Source: a virus
IMG/VR virus record: IMGVR_UViG_3300045988_163663
Length of the DNA: 11,450 nucleotides
Direction: 5' to 3' (one strand)
Part shown: piece after piece, positions 8,962 to 11,182 of the stretch
Layout of the letters: every line of letters begins with the position of its first letter
Position numbering within the stretch: the first letter of the stretch is position 1
Program-made: the position numbers and the translations under genes
The notes under the pieces: generated by a model
The model's database searches: none
What the model saw: the letters and a program-made list of their open reading frames with translations, nothing else
What the model was told of the DNA's origin: nothing

Positions 8962-9856
8962 CAATGACCCCCGCACCTATTTTTCTACGATAAACAAATC
9001 TGTCGCTTAATACAGTAATGTATTTTGAAAAACCTATCTAAACACGGAAAATCCTTATTAAAGGATAACCGAGTGCTAAATTTCTACTTGCCTATATTTG
9101 CTCGATTTGGGAGGTAAATATATGGAAATCTGGAAAGATATAAAAGATTATGAAGGTTATTATTAGATTAGTTCTTACGGTCAAGTGAAAAGCCTTCTCA
9201 CTAACAAAATTTTAGTAGGTGATACAAATAGTTTAGGATATCGAAGAGTTACTTTGTATGCTCCTATTAAAAAACGTTTTTTTATTCATCGGCTTGTTGC
9301 TTTACATTTTTGTAAAGGTTATCAAGAAAATTTAATTGTAAATCATAAAGACGGAGATAAAACCAATAATAAAGTTGAAAATTTAGAGTGGGTTACTCGC
9401 TCTGAAAATGATTTACATGCCTACAAAAATAATTTAAGAAAATCTTATCCTTGTCAATTTAAACATAAAATTATCGCTTATAATTTAACAACTGGTGAAA
9501 TTGTTAAAATTTATAACAATGCTGATAGTTGTGCTAAAGATTTAAAAGTTGCTCGTACCAATATCTATAATTGTTGTAATAAAAAGCAAAAAAGTTGTAG
9601 AGGATTTGGATTAAGATATGATAAATAAAAAATAATAGTGTAAGTAGAATAAAAGCTAAACGACTATCGAAAATATAATAAAAGAGAAAAACTTTTATGA
9701 ATAAATGAGTAGAGTAGCTTCAAGTGAAGCGAAAAGATAGGATTCCTATAAAGGTTAAAACAATATAGGAATATGATATAGTCTGAACTTATATAGTAAT
9801 ATATAGCAGTTTTTTATAAACGATATAAGATTAACGACCTTATATGAACATATTTG
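8962..9856 (+). mobile_element. Group I self-splicing intron in nrdD carrying an HNH homing endonuclease gene (boundaries within about 30 nt).
   Basis: R-like element AAACGACTATCG (about 9657-9668) and S-like element GATATAGTCTGAAC (9775-9788) form P7. P9-like hairpin with GNRA loop ATATA-GTAA-TATAT (9791-9804). P4/P5-like ACACGG / ATCCTT-ATTA-AAGGAT / CCGAGT at 9042-9076. Splicing ...GAC AT(8961)|G(9857) GGA TGC AGA creates the M-G-C-R-T motif (T4 PMGC290RS thiyl-radical Cys). The last exon nucleotide is U and the last intron nucleotide is G. Confidence 0.75.
9122..9628 (+). CDS. Intron-encoded NUMOD4 + HNH homing endonuclease, 168 aa with one in-frame TAG.
   Basis: GGGAGG SD 8 nt upstream of ATG 9122. 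MEIWKDIKDYEGYY-Q-ISSYGQVKS is the NUMOD4 signature (TAG at 9164). HNH motif HRLVALHFCKG...VNHKDGDKTNNKVENLEWVTRSEN. Ends at TAA 9626-9628. Confidence 0.85.
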
Positions 9857-10838
9857 GGGATGCAGAACAGCCAATGGATACGATATTAACGGTTTTGGTT
9901 AGCTAAAAGATGGCCGTGGTAATATTTGTCCAGTAACTATTATTCTTCCTACTTTAGCTATGATTGCTAAAAAAGAATGTGAAGAAGAAGGGCAAGAAGA
10001 AGATATTATTCCAGTATTTATGGCTTTATTAAATAGAAAAATTAATGAAGCTCGCATTCAATTAATGGAGCGTTTTGATTGGATTTGCTCTCAAGATCCT
10101 AAGTCTGCTAAATTTATGTATGAAAATAATTTAATGGCTGGCTATATTCCAGAAGAAGGAATTAGAAGTGCCCTTAAGCATGGCACATTAGCCATTGGAC
10201 AAATTGGTTTAGCAGAAACTCTTTAGATTCTTATTGGTAAAGACCATACAACTAAAGAAGGTATGGAATTAGCGAAACGAATTGAACAAATGTTTAAAGA
10301 TTACTGTGCAAAAGCAAAAGAACAATTTAAACTTAATTTTGGAGTTTATTACACTCCTGCTGAAAATTTATGCTATACGGCAATGACTAAATTCAAAGAG
10401 AAATATGGTATTATCCCTAATGTGTCTGACAAAGAATTCTTCACTAACAGTATTCATGTTCCCGTTTGGAAAAAAATGTCATCTTTTGATAAGATTGACA
10501 TTGAGAGCCAATTGACTGGTTATTCTTCTGCTGGATGTATCACATATGTAGAGTTAGATTCTACTGTAAAACACAATATTGATGCTCTTGAACAAATTGT
10601 TAATTATGCTATGGATAAGGATATTCCTTATTTCGCAGTAAATGTGCCTAATGATACTTGTCTTGATTGTGGATATTGTGATGAATTTAATGATAAATGC
10701 CCAGAATGCGGTAGTACTAACATTCAACAATTACGTCGTGTAACTGGTTATTTAACTGGTAATTATAAGACTGCTTTTAATTATGGCAAACAAAAAGAAG
10801 TAGAAGCACGAGTAAAGCATACGGGGTAGATGGAATGA
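9857..10838 (+). CDS. nrdD: NrdD exon 2: catalytic Cys loop, C-terminal Zn-ribbon and glycyl-radical domain. TAGs at 9900 and 10224. The stop is TGA 10836-10838, or TAG 10827-10829 if that TAG terminates.
   Basis: (M)GCRTANGYDINGFG-Q-LKDGRGNICPVTIILPTLA is collinear with T4 MGCRSFL...DGRNNLGVVTLNLPRIA. YYTPAENLCYTAMTKFKEKYG is collinear with YSTPAENLCYRFCKLDTEKYG. Four-Cys ribbon CLDCGYC...CPECGS. Glycyl-radical region RRVTGYLTG...EARVKH is collinear with RRTCGYLG...HRVKHQ. Confidence 0.85.
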
Positions 10839-11182
10839 TACGTTCAATTTATGACTTAGCTAATTATTTTAATTAGGAAGAAGGAAGAAAATATCCTTGT
10901 TCTAATTAGATAGTAATATGTGCTTATATAACAAATAACTCACAAGAAGTTTATGATTATTTGAATAAAAATAATATTACACCAATCAGAATATCAAAAA
11001 CTTATATAGAATGGCAAGAAAATAATGAACAATGGATATGGACTCCAATAAAACATAACGTTAGAGGGTATAGATTTAATAAGGTAAAAATATCTAAAAA
11101 TTATGATAATGAAGAAATGTTAGAACAAGTAATTATACCTTGCTGTGATTTATATTGTTGTTCTTGGGAGGTTATAGAATGA
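10835..11182 (+). CDS. Hypothetical protein of 115 aa under TAG=Gln (2 in-frame TAGs). The standard-code version is 10961..11182, 73 aa with a TTG start.
   Basis: ATG 10835 overlaps the nrdD TGA (ATGA). Translation: MIRSIYDLANYFN-Q-EEGRKYPCSN-Q-IVICAYITNNSQEVYDYLNKNNITPIRISK...CCDLYCCSWEVIE. The stop TGA 11180-11182 overlaps the nrdG ATG (ATGA). Confidence 0.4.

What the first reader, a model, noticed from the sequence alone, without database searches (positions are those of the whole stretch)
8962..9856. Group I intron with a homing endonuclease interrupts nrdD just upstream of the catalytic cysteine codon
NrdD homology stops at about 8961-8991 and resumes at 9857. The intervening 0.9 kb holds an HNH ORF plus group I core elements: R/S-like P7 strands at about 9657-9668 and 9775-9788, a GNRA-capped P9 hairpin at 9791-9804, and a P4/P5-like arrangement at 9042-9076. 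Splicing AT|G GGA TGC rebuilds the M-G-C-R motif equivalent to T4 NrdD Cys290. Two in-frame 5' splice-site candidates exist (8961 or 8991); both end in U and both give MGCR.
Basis: partly seen in the sequence, partly recalled or inferred. Interest (0 to 1): 0.6.

Follow-up and report, generated by a model that had tools for sequence, protein, structure and literature searches.

The report
Mobile group I intron splitting phage nrdD
An 865-base self-splicing-type (group I) intron that carries its own homing-endonuclease gene interrupts a gut phage's anaerobic ribonucleotide reductase gene two codons before the catalytic cysteine; this is a well-known kind of selfish element, found here at a previously unannotated site in a phage that reads TAG as an amino acid.

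Summary
The finding holds. nrdD (7709-8991 + 9857-10838) is interrupted by an 865-nt insert, 8992-9856. Four near-identical intron-less sibling phage contigs align up to base 8991 and resume at 9857, so the boundaries are exact; the alternative 5' site at 8961 is rejected. The insert has every group I hallmark: P1 with a U·G wobble at the splice site, a P3/P7 pseudoknot, P4-P6, P7.1/P7.2 (subgroup IA-like, as in T4 and Twort introns), P8, GNRA-capped P2 and P9, and a terminal G.

In 30 homologous introns, 94.7% of pair cells are paired (30-47% in slid controls) and 63 of 83 pairs show compensatory changes.

Rfam RF00028 gives only a partial hit in the window (27.5 bits), because the ORF sits in the P6a loop. 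An ORF-less orthologue scores 59.3 bits, above the gathering score of 50.

The ORF (9122-9628) is a full-length I-HmuI-type HNH endonuclease.

Splicing rebuilds S-T-M-G-C-R. T4's own nrdD intron lies 111 codons upstream, so this is a different site.

Extras: the phage reads TAG as Gln, including one codon in the endonuclease gene. A sibling genome carries a different, T4-like GIY-YIG intron 4 nt downstream.

Verdict: a new member of a known kind. Splicing itself is inferred, not shown.

The parts
7709..8991 (+). nrdD exon 1: ATP-cone plus the N-terminal part of class III RNR. It ends with the first two bases (AT) of the Met codon of M-G-C-R. Three in-frame TAG codons (7802, 7925, 8891) are read as sense.
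   Evidence: SD GGAGG lies 5 nt before the ATG at 7709. The boundary at 8991 comes from the intron-less relatives.
8992..9856 (+). Group I intron, 865 nt, IA-like with P7.1/P7.2. It ends in the terminal guanosine G9856.
8988..9005 (+). P1: exon CGAU plus intron A (8988-8992) pairs with the internal guide UGUCG (9001-9005). U8991·G9002 is the wobble at the 5' splice site.
   Evidence: 5 pairs, 100% paired, U·G in 30/30, and 4 of 5 pairs with compensatory changes. The exon -3 base G pairs with guide base C only in this allele group.
9009..9024 (+). P2 hairpin with a GUAA (GNRA) loop at 9015-9018.
   Evidence: 99% paired, 6/6 pairs with double changes.
9033..9039 (+). P3 5' strand CCUAUCU; pairs with 9735-9741.
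   Evidence: 96.7% paired, 4 pairs with compensatory changes. TR-TP2 has CUCAUCU/AGAUGAG.
9042..9074 (+). P4 (9042-9047/9069-9074, with one A·A mismatch) enclosing P5 (9051-9056/9061-9066).
   Evidence: P4 89% and P5 85% paired, with compensatory changes. Coordinates.
9075..9656 (+). P6 (GCU 9075-9077 / AGC 9654-9656) and P6a (9082-9087 / 9644-9649, extendable to about 10 bp). The loop of P6a holds the endonuclease gene.
   Evidence: P6 invariant; P6a 98% paired with 6/6 pairs covarying. ORF-less orthologues have a short hairpin here.
9122..9628 (+). I-HmuI-type HNH homing endonuclease gene, 168 codons. SD GGAGG is at 9110-9114. There is an in-frame TAG at 9164 (codon 15, read as Gln); the stop is TAA.
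   Evidence: The TAG aligns with Q in standard-code homologues and in I-HmuI ('EGYYQISS' / 'EGHYQVSN').
9657..9667 (+). J6/7 (UAAAC) and the P7 5' strand GACUAU (9662-9667).
   Evidence: P7 is 6 bp and invariant, so there is no covariation evidence for it. The sequence is shared with the T4 nrdD intron.
9678..9730 (+). P7.1 (9678-9684/9692-9698) and P7.2 (9717-9721/9726-9730), the insertion typical of phage IA introns.
   Evidence: 86-100% paired, and all pairs show compensatory changes.
9735..9741 (+). P3 3' strand AGAUAGG.
9743..9771 (+). P8 hairpin (9743-9750/9764-9771).
   Evidence: 97% paired, 7/8 pairs covarying.
9772..9783 (+). J8/7 and the P7 3' strand (..GAUAUAGUC; P7 3' strand = 9778-9783).
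   Evidence: it matches the RF00028 consensus 'AAGAUAUAGUCu' at high posterior probability.
9788..9845 (+). P9 (9788-9806, GUAA loop at 9796-9799), P9.1 (9809-9812/9818-9821) and P9.2 (9823-9829/9839-9845).
   Evidence: 95-97% paired, with compensatory changes in nearly all pairs.
9857..10838 (+). nrdD exon 2: G of the Met codon, then GGA TGC AGA (G-C-R, with the catalytic Cys), through the glycyl-radical motif RRVTGYL to the TGA stop at 10836. In-frame TAGs are at 9900, 10224 and 10827.

Best explanation
Bases 8992-9856 are a mobile group I intron of the phage IA type (with P7.1/P7.2), inserted in the Met codon of the M-G-C-R active-site motif of nrdD. The inferred mechanism has two parts. 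First, nrdD is transcribed through the intron; the RNA folds (P1 through P9.2, with the P3/P7 pseudoknot); an external guanosine attacks after U8991, which is wobble-paired to G9002; then the exon 1 3'-OH attacks after the terminal G9856. This joins AT to G GGA TGC, so a single 754-residue NrdD is made. Second, the gene looped out of P6a encodes an I-HmuI-like HNH nicking endonuclease with its own SD. During co-infection it cuts intron-less nrdD alleles near this site, and repair from the intron-bearing copy spreads the intron (homing). Shown here: exact boundaries, RNA structure with covariation, homology to known introns and to I-HmuI, and presence/absence polymorphism. Inferred only: catalysis of splicing, endonuclease activity, and the endonuclease's cleavage site.
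For: Boundaries: four sibling contigs (93-97% identical in exon 1) lack exactly 8992-9856.

Host protein: the spliced NrdD aligns continuously with solved NrdDs, and the junction reads STMGCRT. Pfam NRDD scores 4.7e-143 across residues 117-749.

Rfam RF00028:
- 27.5 bits, E=8e-5, on P8-J8/7-P7'-P9 in the window.
- 59.3 bits (gathering score 50), full model, for the ORF-less orthologue L016 at the same site.
- 105.3 bits for the T4 nrdD intron as a control.

Structure, on 30 distinct homologues:
- 94.7% of cells are paired, against 30-47% when partners are slid.
- 63 of 83 pairs have changes on both sides.
- 0 of 500 shuffles reach any of the five measures.
- RNAalifold independently recovers P1, P2, P3, P4, P6, P6a, P7.1, P7.2, P8, P9, P9.1 and P9.2.
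- U·G at the 5' splice site is present in 30/30; a G precedes the 3' splice site in all.

Endonuclease: NUMOD4 + HNH_3 + I-HmuI NUMOD-like domains; 1U3E at E=1.6e-27 over residues 4-166.

Splicing is needed: there is no in-frame start for exon 2 before 9960 and no SD there. There is no terminator in the intron.

Distribution: at least 37 distinct cores of the same intron, with and without the ORF, almost all at the same AT|G GGN TGY site, in IMG/VR, metagenomes and Thomasclavelia phages TR-TP1/TP2.
Against: - No RNA data, so splicing is not observed.
- The window itself does not reach the Rfam gathering score.
- P7 is invariant in the sample, partly because the search pattern included its 5' strand, so it has no covariation support.
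- P10 pairing is weak and was not established.
- The endonuclease has an in-frame TAG, so it is only made if TAG is decoded.
- No suppressor tRNA was found in the 20 kb held.
Confidence: 0.93

Rival explanations
1. The HNH gene is a free-standing homing endonuclease that has split nrdD into two separately translated genes whose products assemble, as with mobE in Aeromonas phage Aeh1 nrdA. No RNA splicing would occur.
For: GenBank annotates the orthologous Thomasclavelia phage locus as two NrdD CDS plus an HNH CDS, with no intron. Split RNR genes without introns exist (PMC3653736).
Against: The flanks of the ORF form a covarying group I fold. ORF-less versions of the same insert exist at the same site. 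Exon 2 has no start codon or SD until 34 codons after the catalytic Cys, so G-C-R would not be translated. Exon 1 would run on into intron sequence ('...STINKSVA*').
Confidence: 0.03
2. The element is a decayed intron and nrdD is a pseudogene. The many in-frame stops would be real stops.
For: Under the standard code there are six stops within nrdD and one in the endonuclease ORF.
Against: - All these stops are TAG, never TAA or TGA.
- With TAG as sense, the window resolves into contiguous genes carrying 19 in-frame TAGs in 8 genes.
- Two TAGs in highly conserved NrdD blocks, and the one in the endonuclease, align with Gln in standard-code homologues.
- The exons keep 68% amino-acid identity with TR-TP2 without frameshifts.
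- All ribozyme helices are intact in this copy; the only non-standard pair is an A·A in P4, which is also common in the family.
Confidence: 0.03
3. The insert is an intein or another protein-level element.
For: Inteins are common in RNR genes near active sites.
Against: The HNH ORF is not in frame with the exons and is flanked by TAA/TGA stops in all frames. There is no Hint or intein domain. The flanks are structured RNA.
Confidence: 0.01

Closest known systems
Bacteriophage T4 nrdD (sunY) group I intron with I-TevII
   Same: Same host gene and same structural class: P7.1/P7.2, J8/7-P7 'GAUAUAGUCU', and a GNRA-capped P9. Both are mobile introns in a phage RNR gene.
   Different: T4's intron lies after codon 179 (AYE|YEVN), 111 codons upstream of Cys290. 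Its endonuclease is GIY-YIG and is encoded downstream of the core (I-TevII lies downstream of the RF00028 match in the annotation), not an HNH gene in P6a. The sequences are too diverged for blastn.
Group I introns of Herelleviridae (SPO1-like) phages, e.g. Staphylococcus phage Twort nrdE introns and the SPO1 DNA polymerase intron with I-HmuI
   Same: The 3' core of the window intron (9701-9854) gives blastn hits of 74-83% identity to un-annotated gaps in split recA and nrdE genes of Enterococcus and Staphylococcus phages. The endonuclease is a full-length I-HmuI homologue. Insertion next to catalytic residues is the rule for these introns (PMC3653736).
   Different: A different host gene and site, and a different phage lineage: a 188-kb TAG-recoded gut phage.
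Orthologous, un-annotated intron in Thomasclavelia phages TR-TP1/TR-TP2 (PQ571309, PQ571310)
   Same: Same site (ACCAT|GGGTTGT). It is 76% identical over the whole intron, has the same HNH gene in P6a, and differs by many compensatory changes.
   Different: Those phages use the standard code: they have Gln codons where the window has TAG. The internal guide is GUGG rather than GUCG, matching exon CCAU rather than CGAU.
Group I introns splitting nrdD in gut 'Jug' jumbo phages, and recoded intron endonucleases in Agate phages
   Same: nrdD is fragmented by group I introns and HNH genes in 95 of 104 Jug genomes, with splicing seen in metatranscriptomes (PMC12880540). Separately, a group I intron endonuclease enriched in recoded stop codons, proposed to delay its translation, was described in TGA-recoded phages (bioRxiv 10.1101/2021.08.26.457843).
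   Different: Whether any Jug intron uses this exact site was not checked. Here the recoded codon is TAG, and the host gene nrdD is itself recoded.

Membership tests
Group I intron (Rfam RF00028) | P1 helix formed by the 5' exon end and an internal guide sequence, with a U·G wobble at the 5' splice site | tested here: met
   U8991·G9002. U·G is present in 30/30 homologues, and 4 of 5 P1 pairs covary.
Group I intron (Rfam RF00028) | Terminal guanosine (omega-G) immediately before the 3' splice site | tested here: met
   G9856. The boundary is fixed by intron-less alleles, and a G is present at this position in all homologues.
Group I intron (Rfam RF00028) | Conserved core P3-P9 in canonical order, with the P3/P7 pseudoknot, supported by covariation | tested here: met
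   94.7% paired against 30-47% in slid controls; 63/83 pairs with double changes. RNAalifold agrees. P6 and P7 are invariant, so they have no covariation evidence of their own.
Group I intron (Rfam RF00028) | Conserved J8/7-P7 guanosine-binding region sequence | tested here: met
   'AUGAUAUAGUCU' aligns to the model consensus 'AAGAUAUAGUCu'.
Group I intron (Rfam RF00028) | Covariance-model score at or above the gathering score (50 bits) | tested here: inconclusive
   Window: no gathering hit, and a 27.5-bit partial hit, because a 550-nt ORF sits in P6a. ORF-less orthologues: L016 scores 59.3 bits (above threshold), L080 49.3 and L081 39.3. The T4 control scores 105.3.
Group I intron (Rfam RF00028) | Guanosine-dependent self-splicing | not testable with these tools
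   Needs an in vitro transcription/splicing assay or RNA-seq.
Subgroup IA (phage-type) group I introns | P7.1/P7.2 insertion between the P7 5' strand and the P3 3' strand | tested here: met
   9678-9698 and 9717-9730; all pairs covary. The arrangement is the same as in the T4 nrdD intron (alignment). Finer assignment (IA1 versus IA2) was not tested.
I-HmuI-type HNH homing endonucleases | N-terminal NUMOD4 region, HNH (beta-beta-alpha-metal) motif and C-terminal NUMOD/helix-turn-helix DNA-binding region | tested here: met
   Pfam PF07463 5e-14, PF13392 8e-12, PF22083 9e-5. 1U3E at E=1.6e-27 over residues 4-166, with 'vnHkdgdktNnkveNlewvt' aligned on 'vdHkdgnkdNnlstNlrwvt'.
I-HmuI-type HNH homing endonucleases | Site-specific nicking of the cognate intron-less target, and mobility | not testable with these tools
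   There is only indirect support: presence/absence of the intron among 93-97% identical genomes, and ORF-containing and ORF-less forms in the family.
Class III (anaerobic) ribonucleotide reductase NrdD | NRDD domain with the active-site Cys loop (MGCR) and the C-terminal glycyl-radical motif (RVxGY) | tested here: met
   PF13597 4.7e-143, Gly_radical and ATP-cone. MGCR is restored only after splicing; RRVTGYL is present. A radical-SAM gene of the activase type lies downstream in the contig.
TAG-to-Gln recoded phages (genetic code 15) | In-frame TAG, but not TAA or TGA, in conserved genes, aligning with Gln in standard-code homologues | tested here: met
   19 in-frame TAGs in 8 genes. Gln at the conserved positions GFGQLKDGRG and AETLQILIGKD and at YYQIS in the endonuclease. 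At three less conserved positions the homologue has S, D or K.
TAG-to-Gln recoded phages (genetic code 15) | Phage-encoded suppressor tRNA(CUA) or a release-factor change | not tested
   No tRNA was found in the window or in the 20-kb loci. The rest of the 188-kb contig was not available.

The most novel reading that the evidence does not exclude
The two codons before the catalytic Cys of nrdD may be a contested landing pad. In one TAG-recoded gut-phage population, three alleles coexist: intron-less; this HNH/IA intron at AT|G; and a T4-nrdD-like intron with a GIY-YIG gene 4 nt downstream (GGT|TGC). The second intron shares a 31-nt core block with T4's intron. Its P1 target, AUGGGU, differs by one base from T4's AUGAGU, which lies 111 codons away, and its guide sequence carries the matching change. 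This suggests ectopic retargeting of a T4-type ribozyme within the same gene, for example by reverse splicing. Both endonuclease genes carry TAG codons, so their expression, and hence homing, would be restricted to cells where TAG is being decoded. That would couple selfish-element spread to the phage's code switch.
Probability: 0.25. Interest if true: 0.55.

Novelty: new member of a known kind. Interest (0 to 1): 0.35.

Why it matters
Practically, gene callers and GenBank records (for example Thomasclavelia phages TR-TP1/TP2) annotate this locus as two NrdD fragments plus an HNH gene. With TAG read as stop, the gene shatters further. Recognising the intron and the recoding restores one intact 754-residue enzyme.

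Biologically, it adds a widespread intron family at a new nrdD site: at least 37 sequence variants, with and without the ORF, in gut metagenomes. This again illustrates that phage introns target the most conserved catalytic codons of nucleotide-metabolism genes.

The coexistence of intron-less, HNH-intron and GIY-YIG-intron alleles in 95%-identical genomes gives a natural system for studying homing and competition between introns. The TAG codon in the endonuclease gives a handle on how code switching gates selfish elements. None of this changes current concepts.

Tried and rejected
- Rfam at gathering thresholds found nothing, either on the window or on ten related loci. With the more permissive filters of E-value mode, the same loci gave hits above or near threshold. 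The negative gathering-mode result is therefore a filter or ORF-insertion artefact, not evidence against an intron.
- The 5' splice site at 8961 is rejected. It would delete INDPRTYFST, which aligns with conserved residues of solved NrdDs, and intron-less alleles retain those bases.
- 'Same site as the T4 nrdD intron' is rejected.
- My first structure string used one bracket type, which mis-nested P3 and P7. It was redone with P7 as a pseudoknot.
- P10 was looked at by eye (GGAU 9858-9861 with AUCU 8998-9001). It is not conserved in homologues, so it is not claimed.
- ARAGORN found no suppressor tRNA.
- The promoter/terminator scan was uninformative in this AT-rich DNA.
- Rfam found nothing (E<=0.01) in the L021 GIY-YIG insert. 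Its intron nature rests on similarity to T4 and on P1 and omega-G read by eye.
- Two exact pattern matches (L004/L017, and L027/L073) are chance hits, not introns.

Full report
**Observation**

Under the standard code, the window shows NrdD-like ORF fragments on either side of an HNH ORF. In the nrdD frame every internal stop is TAG: 7802, 7925, 8891, 9900, 10224 and 10827. None is TAA or TGA. Reading TAG as sense gives exon 1 from the ATG at 7709 (SD GGAGG 5 nt upstream) to 8991, and exon 2 from 9857 to the TGA at 10836.

Joining AT (8990-8991) to G (9857) gives ...TYFST-M-G-C-R-TANGYD... The 754-residue product aligns without a break to Prevotella copri NrdD (8p23, E=4.7e-126, residues 3-751). 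There, 'fstmgcrt' lies on 'iatmgcrt'. It matches Pfam NRDD over residues 117-749 at 4.7e-143, together with ATP-cone and Gly_radical. The Cys is the equivalent of T4 Cys290, which sits in 'SPMGCRSF'.

**Exact boundaries**

The adjacent 189-residue kinase gene was used to find the source contig. The window is 100% identical to a 188-kb ENA gut-metagenome scaffold (locus L022).

Sibling contigs fall into three groups:
- L020, L023, L024 and L025 are 93-97% identical in exon 1 and have an uninterrupted nrdD. BLAST alignments run to window base 8991 and resume at 9857, with adjacent subject coordinates. The insert is therefore exactly 8992-9856 (865 nt).
- The intron-less L023 and L025 alleles differ from the window at only one base within 40 nt of the junction: ACA versus ACG for Thr at position -3. 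That G pairs with a C of the internal guide.

**RNA structure**

By inspection the insert folds as follows (window coordinates):
- P1: 8988-8992/9001-9005, with U8991·G9002.
- P2: 9009-9024, GUAA loop.
- P3: 9033-9039/9735-9741.
- P4: 9042-9047/9069-9074.
- P5: 9051-9056/9061-9066.
- P6: 9075-9077/9654-9656.
- P6a: 9082-9087/9644-9649, enclosing the ORF.
- J6/7 plus P7: 9662-9667/9778-9783.
- P7.1 and P7.2: 9678-9698 and 9717-9730.
- P8: 9743-9771.
- P9: 9788-9806, GUAA loop.
- P9.1 and P9.2.
- The terminal G9856.

Rfam at gathering thresholds reports nothing. In E-value mode, RF00028 matches 9744-9804 (P8, J8/7, P7', P9) at 27.5 bits, E=8e-5. The shortfall is explained by the roughly 550-nt ORF in P6a.

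**Homologues and covariation**

- blastn found a 76%-identical orthologue at the same nrdD site in Thomasclavelia phages TR-TP1/TP2. It already shows compensatory changes in P1, P3, P4, P5, P6a, P7.1, P7.2, P8, P9 and P9.2.
- A 20-nt pattern covering P6'-J6/7-P7 retrieved about 70 loci from IMG/VR, metagenomes and genomes. From these, 37 distinct intron cores were delimited.
- Nearly all of them sit at AT|G GGN TGY of nrdD. A few are in other genes.
- Both ORF-containing forms (850-920 nt) and ORF-less forms (307-370 nt) exist.

On an alignment of 30 ORF-deleted sequences (A3), my structure, with P7 written as a pseudoknot, gives these results:
- 94.7% standard pairs, against 30-47% for slid partners.
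- 63 of 83 pairs with changes on both sides.
- No shuffle of 500 reaches any measure.
- U·G at the splice site in 30 of 30.

RNAalifold, which knows nothing of my model, recovers all helices except P5 (whose variable loop is poorly aligned) and the pseudoknotted P7. P6 and P7 are invariant and so are uninformative. P7's 5' strand was part of the search pattern.

In Rfam E-value mode:
- The ORF-less orthologue L016 scores 59.3 bits over the full model, above the gathering score of 50.
- L080 scores 49.3 and L081 scores 39.3.
- The experimentally established T4 nrdD intron scores 105.3.

**Endonuclease**

The ORF at 9122-9628 has SD GGAGG at 9110-9114 and one in-frame TAG, at codon 15. It has NUMOD4, HNH_3 and I-HmuI NUMOD-like domains. 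It aligns over its whole length with I-HmuI (1U3E, E=1.6e-27), including the H...N...N motif. The TAG falls on the Q of 'EGYYQ(I/V)S' in I-HmuI and in standard-code homologues. I-HmuI is a strand-specific nicking enzyme; this is established knowledge, not tested here.

**Mechanism**

Shown here:
- Anatomy and covariation.
- Homology to proven introns.
- Presence/absence polymorphism.
- No independent translation start for exon 2 until 34 codons past the Cys.
- No terminator inside the intron.

Inferred only: guanosine-initiated two-step self-splicing that restores the Met codon, and homing by endonuclease cleavage of intron-less alleles during co-infection.

**Rivals**

- A split gene with a free-standing endonuclease, as implied by the GenBank annotation of TR-TP2, would leave G-C-R untranslated and does not explain the covarying RNA.
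- The pseudogene reading fails because all the stops are TAG and they align with Gln.
- An intein is excluded by frame and by domain content.

**Comparison with known systems**

- T4's nrdD intron is of the same structural type but lies after codon 179, 111 codons upstream, and encodes the GIY-YIG enzyme I-TevII.
- The 3' core resembles un-annotated introns in split recA and nrdE genes of Enterococcus and Staphylococcus Herelleviridae phages.
- Split nrdD genes with group I introns are reported in phage surveys and in gut Jug phages, with metatranscriptomic splicing evidence (PMC3653736 and PMC12880540).
- A recoded intron endonuclease was noted in TGA-recoded Agate phages.

This is therefore a new member, and a new insertion site, of a well-known kind.

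**Seen in passing**

- Recoding is pervasive: 19 in-frame TAGs in 8 genes.
- Sibling contig L021 carries, instead of this intron, an 850-nt insert 4 nt downstream (ATGGGT|TGC) with a GIY-YIG ORF. Its core shares a 31-nt block with the T4 nrdD intron. Its P1/guide pair (AUGGGU/GCCCAU) differs from T4's (AUGAGU/GCUCAU) by one compensated base.

**Verdict**

Observation confirmed and interpretation supported. The correct coordinates are 8992-9856. Interest is modest.

Noticed in passing
Whole window, e.g. 838-1956 (4 TAG), 6761-7051 (5 TAG in 96 codons), 7709-10838 (6 TAG), 9164, 10835-11182 (2 TAG): The phage uses TAG as a sense codon, most likely Gln. With only TAA and TGA as stops, the window resolves into contiguous genes with 19 in-frame TAGs in 8 genes. 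TAG aligns with Gln at conserved positions of a standard-code homologue. dnaE (2818-6798) and the kinase gene (7048-7617) have none. No suppressor tRNA was found in the 20 kb available.
   Followed up: partly
L021:11953-12802 (sibling contig ERZ27956891 k141_305597); corresponds to window position 8995/9861: A 95%-identical sibling phage lacks the HNH intron. Instead it has an 850-nt insert 4 nt downstream (ACA ATG GGT|...|TGC AGA) with a GIY-YIG ORF that contains 2 in-frame TAGs. Its core has a 31-nt block identical to the T4 nrdD intron. Its P1 target and guide (AUGGGU/GCCCAU) differ from T4's (AUGAGU/GCUCAU) by one compensated base, although the two sites are 111 codons apart. This may be ectopic retargeting of a T4-type intron. 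Rfam gave no hit with E<=0.01.
   Followed up: partly
L021:5184-5753, between window-equivalent positions about 2559 and 2818: The same sibling contig has a free-standing GIY-YIG endonuclease gene immediately upstream of dnaE. The window and the other siblings lack it.
   Followed up: no
L080:8921-9248 and L080:9336-9616 (minus strand): Two group I introns lie about 90 nt apart on one metagenome contig. One is of the window's family (49.3 bits). The other is a different, stronger RF00028 match (78.4 bits). The host gene was not identified.
   Followed up: no
L040, L056, L028 (Clostridium sp. CAG:221 contig NZ_FR883374), L044: Members of the same intron family sit in genes other than nrdD (exon contexts AACGT|...|TCATCAG and GCCAT|...|AGCGATC), some with different ORFs. 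L056 has a 219-residue ORF that is not of the HNH type seen here. The ribozyme has therefore moved between genes.
   Followed up: no
L001 (Thomasclavelia phage TR-TP2, PQ571310: 27345-30468) and PQ571309: The GenBank records annotate nrdD as two separate CDS plus an HNH endonuclease. The intervening group I intron, orthologous to the window's, is not annotated.
   Followed up: yes
Rfam searches, versus 50 (L016:8810-9090): Method note: the 'gathering' mode reported no hit for L016, although the same intron scores 59.3 bits (above the 50-bit gathering score) in 'evalue' mode. The default speed filters miss these AT-rich phage introns.
   Followed up: yes
L020:12933-13610 and L024:13289-13966; window exon 2 versus L020/L024: Two intron-less siblings have an extra 225-residue ORF near nrdD. 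Their nrdD exon 2 is only about 84% identical to the window, against 93% upstream. This suggests mosaic recombination around the RNR locus.
   Followed up: no
L046, L060, L071 (intron endonuclease ORFs): Other copies of this intron's HNH gene also carry in-frame TAG codons (1, 4 and 1 respectively). The element therefore resides in several TAG-recoded phages as well as in standard-code ones.
   Followed up: partly
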